Below the pieces are notes generated by a model. It ran no database searches. It saw only the letters and a list, made by a program, of their open reading frames with translations, and was not told the origin of the DNA. Source: a virus (lineage: Duplodnaviria > Heunggongvirae > Uroviricota > Caudoviricetes). From it: DNA of 49,438 nucleotides. Positions 3,989 to 14,177 of the stretch are shown here, in pieces. Positions within the stretch are counted from its first letter, which is position 1; every line of letters begins with the position of its first letter. The position numbers were made by a program, and so were the translations under genes. The stretch lies in IMG/VR virus record IMGVR_UViG_2861048470_000005; one strand, given 5' to 3'.

Positions 3989-4177
3989 TTATCCAGCCGG
4001 TATTTCGTTATTCAGGTTCAGCGATACTTTTTTTAACGGGAGGCATTCACCGGGGATTTTTTGTTCGTCCCTTACCTGAATGCAGGATGACTTACTGTCA
4101 TAAATTCCGGTAATCACATTTTGTGGCTCACCCGTTATAAGAAAAACGGTCATCACCAGTGCAAATGCTGAAGTCAC
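3989..4177 (-). CDS. Hypothetical small protein with N-terminal hydrophobic segment
   Basis: 62-aa ORF in an AT-rich stretch; N-terminus (MTSAFALVMTVFLITG) looks like a signal peptide or TM helix. No homolog recognised; the strand assignment is uncertain because plus-strand ORFs overlap. Confidence 0.2.
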   Translation of the reverse strand: MTSAFALVMTVFLITGEPQNVITGIYDSKSSCIQVRDEQKIPGECLPLKKVSLNLNNEIPAG

Positions 4178-4467
4178 TGCTGTTCTCCGATAATACCAAG
4201 TTCAAGAAGGGCAATTCTGGAAAGTATGGAATTATCATTGAGAAGATAAGGTTCATATTTTCTCATCTTAATGGCATCTTCCGTAAACTCCCGGTTACTG
4301 AGCAGAACACCAATATCAAAACAACCTTCAGACGTATTAACGTTTGGTAATAACGTTTCCATTATCGCGTCCTCAACAATGAATTTTGTGATGCGGTGCC
4401 TGGTGCCTCCAGGTGACGTTAACCAGTTAACAATTAACGCCGGATACAGAGAATCCACCCATAACAC
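4174..4467 (-). CDS. Hypothetical protein
   Basis: 97-aa ORF abutting the previous one in AT-rich DNA; not recognised. Confidence 0.2.
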   Translation of the reverse strand: MLWVDSLYPALIVNWLTSPGGTRHRITKFIVEDAIMETLLPNVNTSEGCFDIGVLLSNREFTEDAIKMRKYEPYLLNDNSILSRIALLELGIIGEQQ

Positions 4468-4927
4468 TGTTTTTGGTTTTAACTGTTCCGCGTGCGCTCA
4501 GCCGCATTCACCACATCACAAAATTCACTTTAAAAAGGGCGGCAGAGCAGTCACGGAGTAAAACTGATACCGCCAAACGTCACCAGAAAATTGATAACAG
4601 AGGGCGTTGCAGCGGAGTTGTCACTTAAGCGTATGGTCAACCTGACAACCCGGTGTCCTCAACGGAGGAAGGAATAACCCCGCCATACTTACCGCCGCGC
4701 CATTTCGCGGAGTGCCACAACCGGAAGCGCACGGTCGAACTAAATTTAACGACACCGTACAGAGAGACCAATTTCGCCGTGCGCTTTCGCTTTATGCCCT
4801 GACTTTTCAGGGACATATCCTTTCAGTAAACTGTCAGTGCCGGATGTTCACCCGTGTCCGGCGCACGCACTCCACCTGACCCGTGGAGAACTCCTTAATT
4901 ACCAACCTTAGCTTCGTTGGTTAGCTA

Positions 4928-5146
4928 TTAACGCGGGTATGTAACCATTCTGGCAATGCTTAATGCCGCTGCTTTTTCCAGCCTGGTGATATCCTGCTCC
5001 AGAGCGGACAGATTTTCAGCCTGCTTAGTCCTGGCTTCATTGGCCCATTTCAGATCCTGCACTGCATTAATTTTCTGGCGCATCCACTCATAAAGTTCAT
5101 CATCGGTATAGTCTGGCGCGATGATGACGGGTTCTCGTTTCTGCAT
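4928..5146 (-). CDS. Hypothetical early-left protein (Kil-like by size and position only)
   Basis: 72-aa ORF with a predicted helical, charged sequence, in the early-left operon between the repressor and the exonuclease. No homology verified. Confidence 0.35.
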   Translation of the reverse strand: MQKREPVIIAPDYTDDELYEWMRQKINAVQDLKWANEARTKQAENLSALEQDITRLEKAAALSIARMVTYPR

Positions 5147-5175
5147 ACTGATTCCTCGCGGTGCTGTTTCGCTTA

Positions 5176-5304
5176 TCAGCCGTTAGATTTTGCCGAACTG
5201 GAAAGCGCCTGTTTAAACTCACTGAAGCTGAGAGCTTCTTCGTCTTCGGCAAGGCCTTCGAAGTATTCTTCGTAAGCCTTTTCCATGATTGTGTCGAAAT
5301 CCAT
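5176..5304 (-). CDS. Small acidic protein (42 aa), not in the supplied ORF track
   Basis: My own translation of the minus strand: MDFDTIMEKAYEEYFEGLAEDEEALSFSEFKQALSSSAKSNG. The start codon lies 1 nt after the upstream gene's stop (TGA-T-ATG), suggesting operon coupling. Confidence 0.25.
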   Translation of the reverse strand: MDFDTIMEKAYEEYFEGLAEDEEALSFSEFKQALSSSAKSNG

Positions 5305-5305
5305 A

Positions 5306-5542
5306 TCACTCACCTGAGTTTCTTTCCAGCCAGCGACGGGCACCATTTTCGGTTTTAAACGTTTTGCTTTTGGTATACGTCATTGCGGTGAACGTGCCGT
5401 CCTGGTTGGGGAACACGCCACATACCAGAGATTCGCTGTTGCCAAGATCGATAGTATCCATGCTGACCTCATTTCCCCTTAACGCCGGGGTAGCGGAACA
5501 AAAACCTGCTGCATAGTTATTAAAGTTGAACCCTGCCGTCAT
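5306..5542 (-). CDS. Hypothetical early-left protein
   Basis: 78-aa ORF, first gene leftward of the repressor; may start at an internal Met (MDTIDLG...). No homolog recognised. Confidence 0.3.
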   Translation of the reverse strand: MTAGFNFNNYAAGFCSATPALRGNEVSMDTIDLGNSESLVCGVFPNQDGTFTAMTYTKSKTFKTENGARRWLERNSGE

Positions 5543-5642
5543 GTTCTTACGCCTCGGGCTGGCTACTTAACCCCTGACCACTGCCTGGTAACTCGAAGTA
5601 TTGCCCTGCATTCTGTGGGGCGGGGTGGGTGGCAGGTATATA

Positions 5643-5684
5643 ATGTACTTTGCGTTCATTGTTGTAAAGTACTTTTAGTACATT
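5643..5684. promoter_or_regulatory. Candidate left operator/promoter region (OL-like)
   Basis: ATGTACT (5643-5649) and its inverse AGTACAT (5678-5684) flank a perfect palindrome AAAGTACTTT (5665-5674). The same ATGTACT motif recurs in the repressor/cro intergenic region. Confidence 0.3.
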
Positions 5685-5758
5685 CTGTGTGTAAAAAAAT
5701 GAGATGGGATAAAGTGAAGCACAAACCCGGAGGAAGGCGCTACCGGATTTATGCTGGT

Positions 5759-6178
5759 TTAAGAGGCTTTTTGTTTTTTCTTTCGTGCTAACTCTTCGTA
5801 AATTGCATTGTACTTCTGTTTTTTCTCTTCAAGAGTTTTTAAAAGTTCATCTGTCTCACTGTCAGGGAGCTCGTCCAGAAGGTCAATGATGATTTTTTGT
5901 CTTGGATTTAACTCCTGATAGAAACGTACCTGTCCACTTTCTTCTGTATCCTCTCCCAAAAGATAGGTTGGTGTTGTTCCTATTAGTGTTGCTAATTCCC
6001 TTAATTTCTCCCGGCGAGGAATTGTTTCGCCATTAAACCATTTGCTAACCGCTTTTGGTGTTAATTTCATTCGACGGGCAATTTCTGCCTGCCTTCCATG
6101 TTGTTCATAACCAGCGTTTTCACAGGCTAGCGCAAGCCTACTGGCGAACTCTTTACGCGCTTTATCTTCATGAACCAT
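5759..6178 (-). CDS. XRE-family helix-turn-helix prophage repressor (RacR/CI-like)
   Basis: 139-aa ORF with an N-terminal HTH (...QAEIARRMKLTPKAVSKWFNGETIPR...), divergently oriented to a Cro-like gene and flanked on both sides by GTAC-cored repeats. Confidence 0.8.
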   Translation of the reverse strand: MVHEDKARKEFASRLALACENAGYEQHGRQAEIARRMKLTPKAVSKWFNGETIPRREKLRELATLIGTTPTYLLGEDTEESGQVRFYQELNPRQKIIIDLLDELPDSETDELLKTLEEKKQKYNAIYEELARKKKQKAS

Positions 6179-6202
6179 AAGTTCAATGATATTCGCTCTT
6201 GA

Positions 6203-6233
6203 ATGTACTGTCAGTTCTGTTATAGCATGTACT
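6203..6233. promoter_or_regulatory. Candidate right operator/divergent promoter region (OR-like)
   Basis: The 79-bp intergenic region between the divergent repressor and Cro-like genes contains ATGTACT twice (6203-6209 and 6227-6233). Confidence 0.35.
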
Positions 6234-6257
6234 CAAAGTTCACATTGTGAGGGTGAT

Positions 6258-6512
6258 ATGAACCAGAAAACACTTGAAGATGTAATCAAAACTGTTCGCG
6301 TTGCTGTTGTGGCCGACGTTTGTGGTGTCAGCCAAAGAGCAATCTATAAATGGATGGATAACGGAAAATTGCCTCGCACAGAATATACCGGCGAAACAAA
6401 TTACGCTGAAAAAATCGCTCTTGCATCAAACGGATTATTTTCTGCCGATGCAATTTTAACTATTGGCAGGAATAAAACTACTACGAAAAAGCTGATGGGA
6501 GTTGATTCATGA
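6258..6512 (+). CDS. Cro-like / YdaS-family HTH regulator
   Basis: Start chosen at internal Met (MNQKTLEDVIKTV...) preceded by GAGGGTGA. Small HTH protein (VCGVSQRAIYKWMDNGKLP) divergent from the repressor, as in the Rac racR-ydaS-ydaT arrangement. Confidence 0.65.
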   Translation: MNQKTLEDVIKTVRVAVVADVCGVSQRAIYKWMDNGKLPRTEYTGETNYAEKIALASNGLFSADAILTIGRNKTTTKKLMGVDS

Positions 6513-6934
6513 AAATCAAGCATGAACACATCCGCATGGCGATGAATGCCTGGGCGCATCCGGACGGCGAAAAAGTACCGGCTGCGAAAATTACCAAAGC
6601 GTATTTCGAGCTGGGAATGACGTTCCCGGAACTGTATGACGACAGCCATCCGGAAGCCCTGGCCCGTAATACCCAGAAAATTTTCCGTTGGCTGGATAAA
6701 GACACCCCTGATGCTGTTGAAAAAATGCAGGCTCTGTTACCGGCGATCGAAAAGGCGATGCCGCCTTTGCTGGTGGCCCGTATGCGCAGCCACAGTTCTG
6801 AATATTACCGTGAGATCGTCGAACGGAGGGATCGGCTGGTGAAGGATGTCGATGATTTTGTTGCGTCAGCGGTTGTTTTGTATGACCAGATGAATCGCGG
6901 CGGCCCGGCAGGGAATGCTGTGGTGATGCACTAA
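6509..6934 (+). CDS. YdaT-family protein (CII-position regulator, sometimes called a toxin)
   Basis: 141-aa ORF overlapping the upstream stop by ATGA. Size and position match Rac YdaT; family assignment is from recall. Confidence 0.6.
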   Translation: MKIKHEHIRMAMNAWAHPDGEKVPAAKITKAYFELGMTFPELYDDSHPEALARNTQKIFRWLDKDTPDAVEKMQALLPAIEKAMPPLLVARMRSHSSEYYREIVERRDRLVKDVDDFVASAVVLYDQMNRGGPAGNAVVMH

Positions 6935-6941
6935 AAGCACG

Positions 6942-7919
6942 GTGTTCGGGGGTTTTATGAGCAGCAAGCTTCATGGTCTTGTCTGGGAAGGGTGCGCCTT
7001 CACCGGCATGATCTTATCCAGGGTGGCGGTTATGGCCCGTCTTGCAGACTACAGCAATGACGAGGGCGTGTCATGGCCTGCCATTGAAACTATCCGGCGT
7101 CAGATCGGTGCAAGAAGTGAATCCACAGTGAAATCGGCTATTGCAGAACTGGCGAAAGAGGGCTGGCTGACGAAGGAAGAGCGTAAGGTCGGTGGGCGTA
7201 ATGTAAGCAATATCTATCGGCTTAATGTGGAAAAACTCGAAGCAGCTGCGGCGGCGGCGCGTGAGTCATATAAACCGAAAAGAAAAATTAGCCCGGCAAA
7301 AAATGACCCGTTAACAGTTGACCCGTCAAATATTGACCCCTCAACGGTTGACCCGTCAAATTTTGATGGATCAACCGTTGATAAAAAACTGCCGATTAGG
7401 GGGGCGATGATTGACCCCGATCCGTCAGTATTAAAACCTGATCCGTCAGATAAAAGATCTTCTTGTCCGGACGCTTCGCAACCGGACCCGCAGACGGCTG
7501 AACAGGATTTTTTAACCCGACACCCTGACGCGGTTGTGTTCAGTGCGATAAAACGCCAGTGGGGAAGTCAGGAAGATTTGGTGTGCGCACAGTGGATCTG
7601 GGGACGAATCGTGAGTCTTTACGAGCAGGCGGCCAGCTATGATGGCGAGATCACTAGACCGAAAGAACCCAACTGGACAGCATGGGCCAATGACGTTCGC
7701 ACAATGCGGATGCTGGATGGCAGAACTCACAGACAAATTTGTGAAATGTTTGGGCGTCTCCAGCGGGATTCGTTCTGGGTAAAAAACATCATGAGTCCGG
7801 CAAAACTCCGGGAAAAATGGGATGAACTGGTTATCCGCCTGGGGCGTTTGCCTGCGCAGCGTTGCGTGAATCACATTTCTGAACCGGACACTGAAATACC
7901 GCCGGGATTCAGGGGGTGA
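6942..7919 (+). CDS. Replication initiator protein (lambda O-like / YdaU-like)
   Basis: 325-aa ORF with an N-terminal winged-helix region, followed by a DnaC-like gene. Tandem DNA iterons lie inside the linker region (encoding ...TVDPSNIDPSTVDPSNFDGSTVD...), as ori-lambda lies within O. Confidence 0.7.
   Translation: MFGGFMSSKLHGLVWEGCAFTGMILSRVAVMARLADYSNDEGVSWPAIETIRRQIGARSESTVKSAIAELAKEGWLTKEERKVGGRNVSNIYRLNVEKLEAAAAAARESYKPKRKISPAKNDPLTVDPSNIDPSTVDPSNFDGSTVDKKLPIRGAMIDPDPSVLKPDPSDKRSSCPDASQPDPQTAEQDFLTRHPDAVVFSAIKRQWGSQEDLVCAQWIWGRIVSLYEQAASYDGEITRPKEPNWTAWANDVRTMRMLDGRTHRQICEMFGRLQRDSFWVKNIMSPAKLREKWDELVIRLGRLPAQRCVNHISEPDTEIPPGFRG
7303..7392. repeat. Tandem ~15-bp iterons (candidate phage replication origin) inside the initiator gene
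   Basis: Five to six tandem 15-bp units with core TTGACCCGTCAA (aTGACCCGTTAACAG, TTGACCCGTCAAATA, TTGACCCCTCAACGG, TTGACCCGTCAAATT, TTGATGGATCAACCG, TTGATAAAAAACTGC), each with internal dyad symmetry TTGA...TCAA, followed by an A-rich stretch. Confidence 0.55.
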
Positions 7920-10096: not shown

Positions 10097-11251
10097 ATGG
10101 ATTATTTATCAGAAGTGTTAAAAATCATTGAAGGTGCAACAAAGGCAAATGCTTCGATGGCTAGTAATTATGCTGGGTTGCTGGCAGATAAGCTCGAACA
10201 AAAAGGGGAGGTCAAGCAAGCCAGAATGATAAGAGAAAGGTTGCTTAGAGCTCCCCAGGCGTTGGCAGGAGCTCAAAGGGCTGGAGGTGGGATATCTCTG
10301 GGCTCATTACCGGTAGATATTGATAGTCGACTCAACACTGTTGATGTCAGTTATCCTAAATTAGACAGTTCAGAGATTTTTCTGCCTGCAGCAATCAGTA
10401 CCCGTGTTGAAGAGTTTATCACTAATGTTCAACGTTATGATGAGTTTGTTAAAGCTGATGCAGCATTGCCGAGTCGTATGCTCGTGTATGGAAAGCCAGG
10501 AACAGGTAAGACTATGTTATCTAAGTACATCGCTACCCGCTTAGATTTTCCACTTCTTACAGTGCGTTGCGATACTTTGATTAGTAGTTTATTGGGACAA
10601 ACCAGCAAAAATCTTAGACAGGTTTTCGATTATGTAATGCAGAGGCCATCAGTGCTTTTTTTAGACGAATTTGATGCTTTAGCTGGAGCAAGAGGTAATG
10701 AGAGAGATATAGGTGAGCTTCAGCGAGTTGTCATTTCACTATTGCAGAATATGGATGCGGCATCAGAGGATACGGTAATTATTGCCTCAACTAACCATGA
10801 GCAACTTCTGGATCCTGCAATCTGGAGGCGATTTAGCTTCAGAATTCCAATGCCTCTGCCTGACATACATCAGAGAGAGTTAATTTGGAAAAATCGTTTA
10901 AAGAATATGATATGTAGCGATCTAGATTTAAGTGATTTATCAAGAAAATCGGAGGGATTATCCGGAGCAATAATTGAACAGGTGAGCTTGGATGCACGTA
11001 GGGATGCAGTTATTGAAGGTGCAAGTGTGATAAATCACCATAAATTGTATAGGCGTTTGTATCTTGCGCAATCGCTTATGGAAGGTGTAAATTTAAGCAC
11101 TTACGAAGATGAAATTCGTTGGTTACGTTCTAAAGATAAAAAATTATTTTCTATCAGAGTTCTTGCTAATTTGTACAAACTTACATCAAGAGTAATTTCA
11201 AACATTCTGAAGGAGTCAGGAGCATATGAGCAGAAGGGGTACACAGTTTAG
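10097..11251 (+). CDS. AAA+ ATPase (classical AAA family), first gene of a two-gene cargo operon; candidate IetA-like defence ATPase
   Basis: 384-aa ORF with Walker A GKPGTGKT, Walker B VLFLDEFDAL, sensor-1 IIASTNHEQ and arginine-finger region WRRFSFR. The DNA is visibly more AT-rich than flanking phage genes. GGGAG lies upstream of the ATG. Confidence 0.85.
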   Translation: MDYLSEVLKIIEGATKANASMASNYAGLLADKLEQKGEVKQARMIRERLLRAPQALAGAQRAGGGISLGSLPVDIDSRLNTVDVSYPKLDSSEIFLPAAISTRVEEFITNVQRYDEFVKADAALPSRMLVYGKPGTGKTMLSKYIATRLDFPLLTVRCDTLISSLLGQTSKNLRQVFDYVMQRPSVLFLDEFDALAGARGNERDIGELQRVVISLLQNMDAASEDTVIIASTNHEQLLDPAIWRRFSFRIPMPLPDIHQRELIWKNRLKNMICSDLDLSDLSRKSEGLSGAIIEQVSLDARRDAVIEGASVINHHKLYRRLYLAQSLMEGVNLSTYEDEIRWLRSKDKKLFSIRVLANLYKLTSRVISNILKESGAYEQKGYTV

Positions 11252-13490
11252 TAACGCAAAAGTTACAAACCCAATGTTAAGAATCCCTTTTTCCAGTAGT
11301 GACTTGGGTGCAATAGTAAACGCTGGCGGTGGGGCAAAGGTATTGGTTGATGTAACAGCCGAATATAGACAAGGGCTAGTAAGAAATTTAACAACCAGTA
11401 AACATTATTTAGAATCCAAACTTTCAGAGTACCCTGGAAGCTTGGGTACTTTGGTTTTCAAATTAAGAGACCAGGGAATAGCCAAAACGCATAGGCCGAA
11501 CAAAATTGCTCAAGAGGCTGGATTGCAAAATGCCGGTCATGCCAAAATAGATGAAATGTTGGTTGCTGCTCATGCCGGCTGTTTTGACGTATTAGAGTCA
11601 GTCATTTTACATCGGAATATTAAAGCGATTTTGGCTAATCTAAGCGCGATTGAGCGCATTGAACCTTGGGATGAGAATAGGAAGGTTCCAGGAGGCACTG
11701 ATGGTTTGTTTGAATCATCAAACATCCTTGTACGACTATTTGAGTACACAGGTGAAGATGCAACTTACAACAACTATGAAAACGTTATTTCTATATTAGA
11801 ACAACACGGAGTTAAATATGATGAGATTAGACCAAAATGTGGTCTTCCCTTATTAAGGATAATGGATTTATCCCCAAATGATAGATATATATTAGACATT
11901 CTCATTGATTACCCGGGTATAAGAACGTTAATTCCAGAACCAAAATATTCAGCATTCCCGGTTAGTGTAAGTGATTCTGTTGGCATTGAAACAAATAGCT
12001 TTCCCGTACCATCAGAAGAATTACCCATTGTTGCTGTATTTGACACTGGGGTAAGCCCCATCGCGGCAACAATTACTCCTTGGGTAGTGAGTAGGGAAAC
12101 ATACGTAATTCCTCCTGATACGAGTTATGAACATGGGACTATGGTGTCTTCATTGATATCAGGCGCTCATTTTTTAAATGACAATCATCCATGGATTCCT
12201 GATACAAAATCTAAAATCCATGATGTTTGTGCTTTAGATGGAAATGGATCTTATATATCAGATTTAATTCTGAGGCTAGCAGATGCTGTAAATAAAAGAC
12301 CAGATATAAAAGTCTGGAATTTGTCTTTGGGAGGCGGACCATGTAATGAGCAGATGTTTAGTGATTTTGCGATGGAGTTAGATCGGCTCAGCGATAAATT
12401 TGGTATTTTGTTTGTAGTTGCTGCAGGTAATTATGTAGATGAACCTATACGTACATGGCCAAATCCTGATCCGCTTGGAGGTGCTGATTTAATTTCCTCT
12501 CCTGGAGAGTCAGTCCGAGCACTAACAGTTGGTTCAGTTTCTCATATGGAAGCTAATGATGCTTTAAGTGAAATTGGAACACCGACACCATATACTCGTC
12601 GTGGCCCTGGGCCTGTATTTACTCCAAAGCCAGATATAATCCATGCTGGCGGTGGGGTTCATAGACCTTGGAATGTAGGAGCAAGCAGTTTAAAGGTCGT
12701 AGGGCCAGATAATAGGCTTTGCTCTAATTTTGGTACTAGTTTTGCTGCTCCAATTGTGGCAAGTTTAGCTGCGCATACATGGCAGAGAATAGCCACTAAT
12801 GCAGACTTTAATGTTTCACCATCATTGATTAAAGCATTATTAATTCATTCCGCTCAATTATCTTCTCCTGATTACTCGCCAAGTGAAAGACGCTATTTGG
12901 GAGCGGGAATTCCTAATGAGGTTATTGAGACCTTATATGATAGTGATGATAGGTTTACTCTGATTTTCCAAACATTCTTGGTTCCTGGGGTGAGGTGGAG
13001 AAAGGAAAACTATCCCATACCATCGGCACTTATTCAAAATGGAAAATTTAAAGGTGAGATTGTAATTACTGCTGCATATGCACCACCACTGAACTCTAAT
13101 GCCGGCAGTGAATATGTTCGCGCAAACGTAGAGCTAAGTTTTGGCTTAATTGAGAATAATACTATAAAAGGAAAAGTACCTATGGAAGGAGAAAACGGTC
13201 AATCTGGATATGAGAGAGCTCAAATTGAGCATGGTGGAAAGTGGTCACCAGTAAAAATTCATCGCAAGGCATTTAATAAAGGAATTACTTCGGGTAACTG
13301 GGCTCTTCAAGCTAAAACAACGTTGAGAGCGAATGAACCGGCCTTAATGGAGCCTTTACCTGTAACTATTGTAGTAACTTTAAAATCATTAGATGGAAAC
13401 ACACAAGTTTATGCTGATGGCGTAAGAGCTTTAAATGCTAATAACTGGGCTCACTATCCATTGCCTGCTCGTGTGCCAGTTTCCGTATAA
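11226..13490 (+). CDS. S8 family subtilisin-like serine peptidase with N- and C-terminal extensions; candidate IetS-like defence protease
   Basis: 754-aa ORF. Catalytic residues in S8 order: Asp (VAVFDTGVS), His (YEHGTMVSSLISG), oxyanion Asn (VVAAGNY), Ser (GTSFAAPIVASLAAH). Tandem AGGAG ribosome-binding sites at 11212-11221 and a 26-nt overlap with the ATPase stop suggest translational coupling. Confidence 0.85.
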   Translation: MSRRGTQFSNAKVTNPMLRIPFSSSDLGAIVNAGGGAKVLVDVTAEYRQGLVRNLTTSKHYLESKLSEYPGSLGTLVFKLRDQGIAKTHRPNKIAQEAGLQNAGHAKIDEMLVAAHAGCFDVLESVILHRNIKAILANLSAIERIEPWDENRKVPGGTDGLFESSNILVRLFEYTGEDATYNNYENVISILEQHGVKYDEIRPKCGLPLLRIMDLSPNDRYILDILIDYPGIRTLIPEPKYSAFPVSVSDSVGIETNSFPVPSEELPIVAVFDTGVSPIAATITPWVVSRETYVIPPDTSYEHGTMVSSLISGAHFLNDNHPWIPDTKSKIHDVCALDGNGSYISDLILRLADAVNKRPDIKVWNLSLGGGPCNEQMFSDFAMELDRLSDKFGILFVVAAGNYVDEPIRTWPNPDPLGGADLISSPGESVRALTVGSVSHMEANDALSEIGTPTPYTRRGPGPVFTPKPDIIHAGGGVHRPWNVGASSLKVVGPDNRLCSNFGTSFAAPIVASLAAHTWQRIATNADFNVSPSLIKALLIHSAQLSSPDYSPSERRYLGAGIPNEVIETLYDSDDRFTLIFQTFLVPGVRWRKENYPIPSALIQNGKFKGEIVITAAYAPPLNSNAGSEYVRANVELSFGLIENNTIKGKVPMEGENGQSGYERAQIEHGGKWSPVKIHRKAFNKGITSGNWALQAKTTLRANEPALMEPLPVTIVVTLKSLDGNTQVYADGVRALNANNWAHYPLPARVPVSV

Positions 13491-13898: not shown

Positions 13899-14177
13899 AT
13901 GGCGCACGATACCAAATTTTACAATTCGGATAACTCTGCCGCCCCTGCCAGCAGGCACGGGCGGCGTTCTCATGCATTCAAATCTGACTGGTATCAGCAC
14001 GACCCCTGCACCGAAGAACAGGCTGAATGGCTCATTCAGTGTTACCGCGGGCGCGGATGCGAGGTTAAAAAAGCCCTTAGCCTCGACTACCGTCACTGGA
14101 TAATCTCCGTCAGGCTCCCTTACTCAGAACGGCCAGCGCGTCCGTCCCGCACATTCCAGCAACGGATCTGGAGGTAA
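13899..14177 (+). CDS. Hypothetical protein (uncertain)
   Basis: 92-aa ORF after a ~360-bp AT-rich intergenic region; unrecognised and overlapped by an antisense ORF. Could be coding, or part of the upstream region of the next gene. Confidence 0.25.
   Translation: MAHDTKFYNSDNSAAPASRHGRRSHAFKSDWYQHDPCTEEQAEWLIQCYRGRGCEVKKALSLDYRHWIISVRLPYSERPARPSRTFQQRIWR

What the first reader, a model, noticed from the sequence alone, without database searches (positions are those of the whole stretch)
5643..6934. Rac-type immunity region with GTAC-cored operator repeats on both sides of the repressor
The repressor (5759..6178, minus) is divergent from a Cro-like gene and a YdaT-like gene, the organisation I recall for Rac racR-ydaS-ydaT rather than lambda cI-cro-cII. 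The motif ATGTACT occurs twice in the 79-bp divergent intergenic region (6203-6209 and 6227-6233) and again, with its inverse AGTACAT and a perfect palindrome AAAGTACTTT, downstream of the repressor gene (5643-5684). These look like OR-like and OL-like operator sets. Because the prophage is packaging-defective, this switch may mainly control the cargo and early genes.
Basis: partly seen in the sequence, partly recalled or inferred. Interest (0 to 1): 0.45.

Follow-up and report, generated by a model that had tools for sequence, protein, structure and literature searches.

The report
HK022-type prophage operators, short repressor
The repeated GTAC motifs are real operator sites of an ordinary lambda-like prophage on/off switch. 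They match the long-known operators of phage HK022, not those of Rac, and the only unusual feature is a short repressor that lacks the self-cleaving domain.

Summary
ATGTACT and its inverse occur at the stated positions, and the motif is enriched (8 copies against 3.4 expected).

The 7-mer is part of a 15-bp palindrome, TGWAC-N5-GTWCA. There are five copies: OL1 at 5644-5658, OL2 at 5668-5682, OR3 at 6171-5185 on the repressor ATG (6171-6185), OR2 at 6204-6218 and OR1 at 6228-6242.

These sites align without gaps to the annotated oR1-3, oL, pR and pL of phage HK022. They share its 24/33-bp spacing. The same layout recurs in Klebsiella, Citrobacter and Salmonella phages.

- **Repressor:** the DNA-binding domain is 47% identical to HK022 CI. 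It has no S24 autopeptidase; instead it carries a DicA-like helical tail. It matches RacR only across the helix-turn-helix.
- **Cro:** 60% identical to HK022 Cro.
- **Third gene:** 139/140 identical to CP-933P YdaT (PDB 8BT1), a CII equivalent. Its footprinted site TTGATT-N6-AATCAA lies at 6502-6519.

So this is a mosaic lambdoid immunity cassette of about 0.86 kb with HK022 specificity, placed between Qin-like dicB and CP-933P-like ydaT modules. "Rac-type" fits only the YdaT gene and the short-repressor class. The identical repressor serves the plaque-forming phage Tritos. The induction mechanism is not known; I infer an antirepressor. This is a new member of a known kind, of low to moderate interest.

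The parts
5640..5668 (-). PL-like leftward promoter: -35 TTTACA at 5668-5663, 17-bp spacer, -10 CATTAT at 5645-5640. It drives ydfA-ydfB-ydfC-dicF-dicB and the genes beyond.
   Evidence: Found by the promoter scan. It aligns to the annotated HK022 pL, TTTACA-17-CATCAT.
5644..5658 (.). OL1 operator TGTACTTTGCGTTCA, overlapping the PL -10 hexamer.
   Evidence: Perfect match to TGWAC-N5-GTWCA. Aligns to an annotated HK022 oL site, TGAACTTTAAGTACA.
5668..5682 (.). OL2 operator AGTACTTTTAGTACA, 24 bp centre-to-centre from OL1 and abutting the PL -35 hexamer.
   Evidence: One mismatch to the consensus. Aligns to HK022 oL TGTACTATTGGTACT.
5759..6178 (-). Immunity repressor, 139 aa. It has an HK022-CI-like helix-turn-helix N-terminal domain (about residues 1-76) and a short DicA-like helical C-terminal domain. 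It has no S24 peptidase domain.
   Evidence: Pfam finds HTH_3 only. It is 47% identical to HK022 CI over residues 4-102, E 6e-32. It is 29% identical to DicA over 112 residues including the tail, E 5e-15. The class split is shown in alignment A5, and the AlphaFold model is all-helical with pLDDT 83.
6171..6185 (.). OR3 operator, centred on the repressor start codon. On the minus strand it reads TGAACTTATGGTTCA.
   Evidence: Perfect consensus match. It is 15/15 identical to the annotated HK022 oR3 and sits at the same place over the cI ATG.
6186..6214 (-). PRM-like leftward promoter (inferred): -35 CTGACA at 6214-6209 and -10 TATCAT at 6191-6186. It would start transcription at or next to the ATG, giving a leaderless repressor mRNA.
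   Evidence: Found by the promoter scan at 10/12 matches. A TATNNT hexamer 7 nt upstream of the ATG is conserved in six relatives, and there is no Shine-Dalgarno sequence. Leaderless precedents are lambda cI and paaR2 (PMC8630535).
6199..6226 (+). PR-like rightward promoter: -35 TTGAAT at 6199-6204 and -10 TATAGC at 6221-6226. It drives cro-ydaT and the replication genes.
   Evidence: Placed by position-for-position alignment to the annotated HK022 pR -35 and -10. It falls below the threshold of the consensus scan.
6204..6218 (.). OR2 operator TGTACTGTCAGTTCT, lying between the PR -35 and -10 hexamers and covering the PRM-like -35.
   Evidence: One mismatch to the consensus. Aligns to HK022 oR2. 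It is 24 bp from OR1 and 33 bp from OR3.
6228..6242 (.). OR1 operator TGTACTCAAAGTTCA, just downstream of the PR -10 hexamer over the expected start site.
   Evidence: Perfect consensus match. Aligns to HK022 oR1.
6258..6512 (+). Cro, 84 aa.
   Evidence: 60% identical to HK022 Cro over 73 residues, E 1e-33. Best PHROG hit is phrog_35.
6502..6519 (.). YdaT operator OM, TTGATTCATGAAAATCAA, spanning the cro stop codon and the ydaT start codon. It is part of the PRE-type establishment module.
   Evidence: The only match in the window. The sequence was footprinted for CP-933P YdaT (PMC9986795). It lies in a segment 99.6% identical to O157:H7 prophages.
6509..6934 (+). YdaT, the functional equivalent of CII, 141 aa.
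   Evidence: 139/140 identical to PDB 8BT1, CP-933P YdaT. Pfam YdaT_toxin E 2.8e-10. phrog_163, CII-like activator, E 3e-48. 31% identical to Rac YdaT.
4174..5461 (-). Start of the PL operon: ydfA (DUF1391) 5306-5461, ydfB 5176-5304, ydfC 4928-5146, dicF sRNA 4537-4588, dicB 4174-4362.
   Evidence: Gene names come from the RefSeq annotation of the 100%-identical region in strain TW10722. DUF1391 is confirmed by Pfam and DicF by Rfam at 76.7 bits.

Best explanation
This is the immunity cassette of a lambdoid prophage integrated next to ompW. It spans about 5640-6500 and has HK022 operator specificity.

**Repression (inferred from homology).** The 139-aa repressor binds 15-bp palindromes of the form TGWAC-N5-GTWCA.
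- A pair 24 bp apart (OL1, OL2) covers the leftward promoter PL. This silences ydfABC-dicF-dicB, the exonuclease, xis and int.
- A pair 24 bp apart (OR1, OR2) covers the rightward promoter PR. This silences cro, ydaT and the replication genes.
- A third site (OR3), 33 bp further on, sits on the repressor's own start codon and is placed for negative autoregulation.

**Repressor expression (inferred).** The repressor mRNA is probably leaderless.

**Lytic and establishment arms (inferred from homologues).** Cro, 60% identical to HK022 Cro, is expected to compete for the same sites and lock in the lytic state. YdaT is virtually identical to the characterised CP-933P protein. It binds TTGATT-N6-AATCAA at the cro/ydaT junction and plays the CII role, driving establishment transcription of the repressor.

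**Induction (inferred).** The repressor lacks the LexA-like S24 domain and has a DicA/Gifsy-type helical tail. RecA-stimulated self-cleavage is therefore not expected. Derepression would come from an antirepressor, not yet identified, or from stochastic switching.

**What is shown and what is inferred.** Shown here: the sites, their homology, their geometry and the domain make-up. Inferred: binding itself, promoter start sites, autoregulation and the induction route.
For: **Operators, promoters and geometry**
- The five sites are clustered and enriched.
- OR aligns without gaps to HK022 and HK75 OR: the three operators, pR -35 and -10, and the cI and cro start codons all fall in register, and OR3 is 15/15 identical.
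- OL and pL align likewise.
- The same triplet with 24/33 spacing, plus the OL pair, is found in Klebsiella phage 2b LV-2017, Citrobacter phage Omnitron, Salmonella phages S9-5 and SI8, and a Salmonella short-repressor prophage. In each, none of 200 shuffles reached the observed count.

**Proteins**
- The repressor N-terminal domain is 47% identical to HK022 CI. The recognition helix TPKAVSKWFNGE is invariant across short and long relatives.
- Cro is 60% identical to HK022 Cro.
- No S24 domain is present, the tail is DicA-like, and the model is helical.
- YdaT is 139/140 identical to 8BT1, and its operator occurs once, at 6502-6519.

**Literature**
- HK022 CI binds OL and OR cooperatively and loops the DNA between them (PMC8053113).
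- YdaT acts as CII and activates PRE; paaR2 is leaderless (PMC8630535, PMC9986795).
- DicA and Gifsy repressors are not cleaved and are inactivated by antirepressors (PMC3121763, PMC10448788).

**The identical repressor in phage Tritos**
- It is expressed in the LF82 lysogen.
- Tritos forms plaques and is not listed among the ciprofloxacin-induced prophages (PMC9928086).
- CRISPRi knock-down of the LF82 prophage repressors is detrimental (bioRxiv 10.64898/2026.01.05.697630).

**Mosaic boundaries**
- Prophages with unrelated immunity genes share only 5560 to about 5632 and about 6492-7000 with this window.
Against: - No binding, transcription-start or induction data exist for this particular protein.
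- The PR -10 hexamer (TATAGC) is poor and missed the scan threshold.
- The PRM-like -35 lies inside OR2, centred near -33. Lambda-style activation by OR2-bound repressor therefore does not fit, and how the repressor level is maintained is unclear.
- HK022's extra sites OL3 and OFR have no counterpart here.
- No Rem-like antirepressor and no intergenic LexA box were found in the window. The antirepressor step has no candidate better than a positional guess.
- The similarity to DicA is below NCBI's curated cut-off (56.8 bits against 101).
- Foldseek found no significant match for the tail.
Confidence: 0.85

Rival explanations
1. A Rac-type racR-ydaS-ydaT module. In this reading a RacR-family repressor holds down two toxic genes, so the locus acts like a toxin-antitoxin system and the GTAC repeats are RacR-type operators.
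For: - Gene order and orientation match Rac.
- The third gene belongs to Pfam YdaT_toxin and is 31% identical to Rac YdaT.
- The Cro-like protein and YdaS share the broad cluster phrog_35.
- RacR is also a short repressor without a cleavage domain (PMC3121763).
Against: - The repressor matches RacR only over 33 residues (E 1e-4).
- Cro against YdaS gives E 0.075.
- Rac uses GCCTAAT repeats and has no TGWAC-N5-GTWCA site.
- Much closer relatives exist in HK022.
- CP-933P YdaT, 99% identical to the protein here, is a non-toxic DNA-binding activator (PMC8630535, PMC9986795).
Confidence: 0.04
2. The switch has no dedicated inducer. With a non-cleavable repressor and no cognate antirepressor in the element, it flips only stochastically or under general stress, as a bistable repressor/Cro circuit. 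In this IS-disrupted copy it mainly gates dicB/dicF and the early genes.
For: - No Rem homologue and no LexA box were found.
- Qin dicBp and CP-933P show spontaneous, RecA-independent bistable switching (PMC10448788, PMC8630535).
- Tritos is released spontaneously at low level and was not reported as induced by ciprofloxacin (PMC9928086).
- The terminase gene here is split by IS66.
Against: - DicA and the Gifsy repressors, which share this tail type, do have antirepressors. These are sometimes encoded elsewhere in the prophage or on another prophage (PMC3121763, PMC10448788). Absence from this window therefore proves little.
- Antirepressors are small and diverse and are easily missed by homology searches.
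Confidence: 0.3
3. The repressor is an SOS-cleavable CI like that of HK022, and the prophage is induced directly by RecA.
For: The N-terminal domain, the operators and Cro are all HK022-type, and HK022 CI carries an S24 domain.
Against: - The protein has 139 residues and no Peptidase_S24 match.
- The alignment shows that the long S24 relatives diverge from it after about residue 76.
- The model shows only helices.
- Tritos was not reported as ciprofloxacin-induced (PMC9928086).
Confidence: 0.03
4. The repeats are chance, or serve another role such as a transcription terminator hairpin downstream of the repressor gene.
For: The scan flagged 5645-5672 as terminator-like on the + strand.
Against: - That hairpin is simply OL1 paired with OL2. 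It is on the wrong strand for the repressor gene, and the minus strand has no T-run after it.
- Enrichment, clustering and cross-genus conservation of sequence and spacing rule out chance.
Confidence: 0.01

Closest known systems
Coliphage HK022 immunity region (cI, cro, OR1-3, OL, pR, pL; GenBank X16093) and its relative HK75
   Same: - The operator consensus TGWAC-N5-GTWCA is the same, and OR3 is identical.
- The centre spacing is the same: 24 and 33 bp at OR, 24 bp at OL.
- OR3 lies over the repressor start codon in both.
- pR and pL hexamers are in register.
- The repressor DNA-binding domain is 47% identical, with a nearly identical recognition helix.
- Cro is 60% identical.

   Different: - HK022 CI has 235 residues and a LexA-like S24 domain. 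The protein here has 139 residues and a DicA-like helical tail.
- No OL3 or OFR site is present here.
- The gene downstream of cro is YdaT, not HK022 cII.
- The PL leader is Rac/Qin-like rather than carrying putL and nun.

Qin prophage dicA-dicC locus and dicBp (DicA, a Gifsy-type short repressor)
   Same: - Both have a short non-cleavable repressor with a homologous helical tail.
- In both, operators flank the repressor gene.
- In both, the downstream promoter drives ydfA-ydfB-ydfC-dicF-dicB.
(PMC10448788)
   Different: - The DNA-binding domain and the operators differ: Qin uses TTAGT/CTAAC-type sites.
- DicC is unrelated to the Cro here.
- The protein scores below the NCBIfam DicA cut-off.
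- No Rem antirepressor is present.
CP-933P (Sp12) PaaR2-YdaS-YdaT switch of E. coli O157:H7
   Same: - YdaT is 139/140 identical, with the same OM operator at the cro/ydaT junction.
- Both have a short repressor and a PL-type second promoter downstream of it.
- PaaR2 is made from a leaderless mRNA, and a leaderless mRNA is likely here.
(PMC8630535, PMC9986795)
   Different: - DNA similarity to the O157:H7 prophages begins only at about 6492.
- CP-933P uses PaaR2 and YdaS with GTTTAGTAA-type repeats, and carries the paaA2-parE2 toxin-antitoxin pair behind the repressor. Neither is present here.
Rac prophage racR-ydaS-ydaT
   Same: - Gene order is the same.
- Both have a YdaT homologue, 31% identical.
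- Both have operator repeats on both sides of a short repressor.
- The PL leader at 5560-5632 is 95.9% identical to Rac.

   Different: - RacR and YdaS are not detectable homologues of the repressor and Cro here, beyond the helix-turn-helix and the broad PHROG cluster.
- The operator motif is different.

Membership tests
HK022-type lambdoid immunity region | Operators are 15-bp palindromes TGWAC-N5-GTWCA | tested here: met
   Five sites match with 0-1 mismatch. HK022 oR1/oR3 read TGAACTTATGGTTCA, oR2 GGAACTGATAGTACA, and the oL sites TGTACTATTGGTACT and TGAACTTTAAGTACA.
HK022-type lambdoid immunity region | Geometry: OR1-OR2 24 bp, OR2-OR3 33 bp, OR3 over the repressor ATG, and an OL pair 24 bp apart on pL | tested here: met
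   The centres lie at 6235, 6211 and 6178, and at 5651 and 5675. The alignments to HK022 are gap-free across OR, and across the OL operator pair and pL.
HK022-type lambdoid immunity region | Repressor DNA-binding domain and Cro are homologous to those of HK022 | tested here: met
   47% identity with E 6e-32, and 60% identity with E 1e-33.
HK022-type lambdoid immunity region | Repressor carries a LexA-like S24 self-cleavage and oligomerisation domain | tested here: not met
   139 residues, no Peptidase_S24 hit, and divergence from the S24-bearing relatives after about residue 76.
HK022-type lambdoid immunity region | Additional OL3 and OFR operators | tested here: not met
   No site scoring at least 8/10 between 6243 and 7100. 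No aligned OL3.
HK022-type lambdoid immunity region | Repressor and Cro physically bind these operators | not testable with these tools
   This needs EMSA or footprinting. It is known for HK022 CI from the literature cited in PMC8053113.
Rac racR-ydaS-ydaT module | Repressor is a RacR homologue | tested here: not met
   Only a 33-residue helix-turn-helix match, E 1e-4.
Rac racR-ydaS-ydaT module | Second gene is a YdaS family member | tested here: inconclusive
   BLASTP E 0.075 and no Pfam YdaS hit, but both fall in the remote-homology cluster phrog_35.
Rac racR-ydaS-ydaT module | Third gene is a YdaT family member | tested here: met
   Pfam YdaT_toxin at 40.9 bits against a cut-off of 21. 31% full-length identity to Rac YdaT.
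Rac racR-ydaS-ydaT module | RacR-type operator repeats (GCCTAAT) | tested here: not met
   Rac has five GCCTAAT copies around racR and no TGWAC-N5-GTWCA site. By direct reading, no GCCTAAT is present in window 5400-7200, which covers OL and OR; the rest of the window was not scanned for it.
DicA/Gifsy-type short non-cleavable repressors | About 135-150 residues, an N-terminal helix-turn-helix, no cleavage domain, and a helical tail homologous to that of DicA | tested here: met
   29% identity over 112 residues including the tail, E 5e-15. The DicA tail and this protein both hit phrog_5736. The model is helical.
DicA/Gifsy-type short non-cleavable repressors | Member of the DicA subfamily by NCBIfam's curated threshold | tested here: not met
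   NF007257 scores 56.8 bits against a cut-off of 101.
DicA/Gifsy-type short non-cleavable repressors | Inactivated by a cognate antirepressor (Rem, GfoA or similar) | tested here: inconclusive
   No Rem homologue by tblastn and no LexA box in an intergenic region. Antirepressors can be unrelated in sequence or encoded in trans.
CP-933P YdaT/PRE establishment module | YdaT orthologue together with its TTGATT-N6-AATCAA operator at the cro/ydaT junction | tested here: met
   139/140 identity to 8BT1. One exact site, at 6502-6519.

The most novel reading that the evidence does not exclude
One HK022 operator set, with identical site geometry, is served in nature by two unrelated C-terminal modules: the RecA-cleavable S24 domain in HK022 and the Klebsiella, Citrobacter and Salmonella phages, and a short DicA/Gifsy-type helical tail here, in Tritos and in some Salmonella prophages.

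If the short repressor truly recognises HK022 operators, this common E. coli cassette (about 400 of 5,426 complete genomes) would give SOS-proof immunity against superinfecting HK022-immunity phages. It would also respond to a still unidentified antirepressor. In that case even a packaging-dead prophage would be kept as a defence and as a gate on dicB/dicF.
Probability: 0.4. Interest if true: 0.45.

Novelty: new member of a known kind. Interest (0 to 1): 0.25.

Why it matters
- **Annotation.** The result gives a concrete, testable operator and promoter map for an immunity cassette carried by roughly 7% of complete E. coli genomes and by the active phage Tritos of the Crohn's-associated strain LF82.
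- **Cross-immunity.** It predicts cross-immunity with HK022-type phages.
- **Induction.** It flags that DNA-damaging antibiotics should not induce the prophage directly.
- **Evolution.** It is a clean natural example of a repressor swapping its induction module while keeping its operators.

None of this overturns current understanding of lambdoid switches.

Tried and rejected
- **Rem antirepressor.** tblastn of K-12 Rem against the window found nothing below E 0.48. The 92-aa ORF in the rem-equivalent position has no similarity to Rem.
- **LexA boxes.** The two exact CTGT-N8-ACAG sites lie inside IS66 and the tape-measure gene. The looser matches lie inside ydfB/ydfC coding sequence.
- **HK022-style extra operators.** No OFR downstream of cro and no OL3.
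- **PRE-type promoter.** The consensus scan found none in 6400-6700. This is as expected for an activator-dependent promoter, so it is not informative.
- **Foldseek of the repressor model against the PDB.** Only generic XRE helix-turn-helix hits, none at E <= 0.001. The tail was not identified.
- **PDB sequence search for the repressor.** Only the P22 C2 N-terminal domain, at E 0.006.
- **Within-E. coli variation.** Copies of the region that are 95% identical overall encode identical repressor and Cro proteins; the differences lie in ydaT. They say nothing about operator constraint.
- **Carlson & Little 1993 (PMC206910).** Not held. The HK022 binding data are therefore cited second-hand through PMC8053113 and the GenBank feature table.
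- **K-12 loci in the Python sandbox.** Loci fetched by accession were not available there. I used the comparison tools directly instead.
Full report
**1. The observation**

The sequence is as described. ATGTACT lies at 5643-5649, 6203-6209 and 6227-6233 on the + strand, and at 5677-5683 on the - strand. AAAGTACTTT lies at 5666-5675. The repressor ORF (5759-6178, -) diverges from a Cro-like ORF (6258-6512, +) across a 79-bp spacer. A third ORF (6509-6934, +) follows.

The 7-mer occurs 8 times in the window against 3.44 expected, and no shuffle out of 100 reached 8. Repeat finding showed that the unit is longer: ATGTAC-N5-GTTC recurs at 5643, 6203 and 6227, with 24-bp phasing. A palindromic version, TGWAC-N5-GTWCA, picks out five sites with at most one mismatch:

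- 5644-5658
- 5668-5682
- 6171-6185
- 6204-6218
- 6228-6242

All three perfect matches in the 49.4-kb window are among these five. Five of twelve hits falling in 606 bp gives a binomial P of 2e-7.

**2. Where the window comes from**

The region is 100% identical to a prophage next to ompW in E. coli TW10722. About 407-409 of 5,426 complete E. coli genomes carry at least 80% of it.

RefSeq annotation of that copy gives the following order:
- Leftward: int, xis, an exonuclease, a DUF1482 protein, dicB, ydfC, ydfB, and a DUF1391 (ydfA-like) gene. The dicF sRNA, which the RefSeq record does not annotate, lies between dicB and ydfC and was placed by Rfam at 76.7 bits.
- Then the repressor.
- Rightward: an HTH regulator, a 'toxin YdaT family protein', replication genes, DUF1627, DUF977, and iteA/iteS.

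**3. What the operators are**

A tblastn search of the repressor against phage genomes found identical or 99% identical copies in the phages Tritos and vB_EcoS-673R7. It also found partial matches to the CI repressors of HK022 and HK75 and of Klebsiella, Citrobacter and Salmonella phages.

The HK022 GenBank record (X16093) annotates three oR sites, two oL sites, pR and pL. Its operator sequences are:
- oR1 and oR3: TGAACTTATGGTTCA
- oR2: GGAACTGATAGTACA
- oL sites: TGTACTATTGGTACT and TGAACTTTAAGTACA

This is the same consensus as in the window.

A gap-free alignment of the window's OR (reverse strand) with HK022 and HK75 puts all of the following in register: the three operators, the pR -35 and -10 hexamers, and the cro and cI start codons. 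OR3 is 15/15 identical. OL1, OL2 and pL align in the same way: TTTACA-17-CATTAT here against TTTACA-17-CATCAT in HK022. The promoter scan also found this PL independently.

Centre-to-centre spacing is 24 and 33 bp at OR and 24 bp at OL in both phages.

The same arrangement is present in Klebsiella phage 2b LV-2017, Citrobacter phage Omnitron, Salmonella phages S9-5 and SI8, and a Salmonella prophage encoding a 65%-identical short repressor. In every case the count exceeded all 200 shuffles. In the six-way alignment the half-sites are conserved while the spacers drift. This is a phylogenetic footprint.

HK022 CI is reported to bind adjacent operators cooperatively and to loop the DNA between OL and OR (PMC8053113, citing Carlson & Little 1993).

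**4. The proteins**

*Repressor.*
- Pfam finds only HTH_3 and HTH_31.
- Residues 4-102 are 47% identical to HK022 CI (E 6e-32). The recognition helix TPKAVSKWFNGE is invariant across short and long relatives.
- After about residue 76 the family splits. Long forms carry Peptidase_S24. Short forms, including this one, carry about 55 residues that resemble the DicA tail (29% identity over 112 residues, E 5e-15).
- The DicA tail and this protein both hit phrog_5736. The NCBIfam DicA model aligns end to end but scores below its cut-off (56.8 against 101 bits).
- RacR matches only 33 residues of the helix-turn-helix.
- An AlphaFold model (pLDDT 83) shows a five-helix N-terminal domain, a weaker linker, and three C-terminal helices ending in a long one at residues 106-138. 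Foldseek gave only generic XRE matches.

*Cro.* It is 60% identical to HK022 Cro (E 1e-33). It gives E 0.075 against YdaS and no alignment with DicC. It does share the broad cluster phrog_35 with YdaS.

*Third protein.*
- It is 139/140 identical to the crystallised CP-933P YdaT (8BT1).
- It is 31% identical to Rac YdaT.
- It hits phrog_163, 'CII-like activator', at E 3e-48.
- CP-933P YdaT activates a PRE-type promoter and footprints on TTGATT-N6-AATCAA at the ydaS/ydaT junction (PMC8630535, PMC9986795). That exact sequence occurs once in the window, at 6502-6519, across the cro stop and the ydaT start. It is also present in Tritos.

**5. Mosaic structure**

Prophages with unrelated immunity genes share only window 5560 to about 5632 and about 6492-7000 with this element. 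Their immunity genes include LexA-family repressors with Cro/CI proteins, and the O157:H7 type. K-12 Rac shares 5560-5632 at 95.9% identity.

The immunity cassette proper is therefore about 5640-6490: OL, repressor, OR and cro. It has been exchanged as a unit between conserved flanks, which is the classical lambdoid pattern.

Rac and Qin show the same 'operators on both sides of the repressor' layout, each with its own motif. Rac uses GCCTAAT repeats. Qin uses TTAGT/CTAAC-type sites.

**6. Mechanism**

*Shown.*
- OL1 and OL2 overlap the -10 and -35 hexamers of PL.
- OR2 lies between the PR hexamers and overlaps the -35.
- OR1 abuts the PR -10 and covers the expected start site.
- OR3 covers the repressor ATG.

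*Inferred.*
- Repressor dimers bind cooperatively as 24-bp pairs and shut PL and PR.
- OR3 gives negative autoregulation.
- Cro competes for the same sites.
- YdaT drives establishment transcription.

*The repressor's own promoter.* A leftward promoter (CTGACA-17-TATCAT, 10/12 matches) ends 7 nt before the ATG, and there is no Shine-Dalgarno sequence. A TATNNT hexamer is conserved at that position in all six relatives. The repressor mRNA is therefore probably leaderless, as for lambda cI and paaR2 (PMC8630535).

One point does not fit the lambda model. The -35-like hexamer lies inside OR2, centred near -33, so OR2-bound repressor should hinder this promoter rather than activate it. I leave this open.

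*Induction.* The protein lacks the S24 domain and shares its tail with DicA. I therefore expect no RecA-dependent cleavage. DicA and the Gifsy repressors are inactivated by antirepressors (PMC3121763, PMC10448788).

No Rem homologue or intergenic LexA box is present here, so the inducer is unknown.

In LF82, Tritos carries the identical repressor and the same five operators. The published data on it are consistent with a working repressor that does not respond to SOS:
- The repressor gene is expressed in the lysogen.
- Virions appear spontaneously at low level.
- Tritos is not among the prophages reported as induced by ciprofloxacin (PMC9928086).
- Silencing the LF82 prophage repressors is detrimental (bioRxiv 10.64898/2026.01.05.697630).

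**7. The packaging claim**

In this window the large terminase gene is split by an IS66-family element:
- ATPase domain in ORF 21963-22964
- IS66 genes up to 25579
- nuclease domain in ORF 25780-26640

The TW10722 copy is intact. The same cassette operates in intact phages, however, so it is not specialised for cargo control.

**8. Verdict**

The operators are real and the OR/OL reading is right. The family assignment should be changed from 'Rac-type' to 'HK022-specificity cassette with a DicA-type short repressor and a CP-933P-type YdaT module'.

Each component belongs to a described family. I found no paper describing this combination or its operators.

It is a new member of a known kind. 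Its modest interest lies in the natural swap of the induction module on a fixed operator set, and in the predicted cross-immunity with HK022-type phages.

Noticed in passing
window 21963-26640: An IS66-family element (transposase genes up to 25579) splits the lambda-type large terminase gene gpA into its ATPase and nuclease halves. The otherwise near-identical prophage in strain TW10722 has an intact gene.
   Followed up: partly
window 10097-13490: The iteA/iteS anti-phage pair (an ATPase and an S8 peptidase, as named in RefSeq) sits between the replication genes and the nin/Q region. In related ompW-integrated prophages a rem gene lies at about the same distance from the left end.
   Followed up: no
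window 5560-5632: The first ~75 nt of the predicted PL transcript, which is C-rich on the transcribed strand, are 95.9% identical to K-12 Rac. Prophages with unrelated immunity cassettes also share them. The conservation suggests a function, such as an antitermination or regulatory RNA site. The Rfam search of this region returned only two matches, DicF and a sub-threshold STnc100 match (next item), and neither lies in this leader.
   Followed up: partly
window 4330-4588 (-): The DicF sRNA lies at 4537-4588 (76.7 bits). Immediately downstream, at 4330-4539, is a sub-threshold match to the STnc100 sRNA family (38.7 bits against a gathering score of 47).
   Followed up: no
window 13899-14177 (+): A 92-aa ORF of unknown function (phrog_1212) overlaps the start of the DUF968/ydfU gene. 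This is the slot that the antirepressor rem occupies in Qin. The ORF is also present in Tritos (TRITO_42). It has no similarity to Rem, so it is only a positional candidate for an antirepressor.
   Followed up: partly
window 6171-6214: OR3 is centred on the repressor ATG, so the first codons (MVH or MVQ in all relatives) are also operator bases. The -35-like hexamer of the repressor promoter lies inside OR2, which does not fit lambda-style positive autoregulation.
   Followed up: partly
L014 3553-4351 (Salmonella enterica GCA_028156025.1): In a Salmonella prophage with a 65%-identical short repressor, a HigB toxin gene and a helix-turn-helix gene (a presumed toxin-antitoxin pair) are inserted between the repressor gene and the OL pair. 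This mirrors rexAB in lambda and paaA2-parE2 in CP-933P.
   Followed up: no
L013 36334-38090 (phage Tritos): Tritos carries the identical repressor. It has an ImmA/IrrE-type metallopeptidase gene with an XRE domain in its nin region, and this gene is absent from the window. Whether it acts on the repressor was not examined.
   Followed up: no
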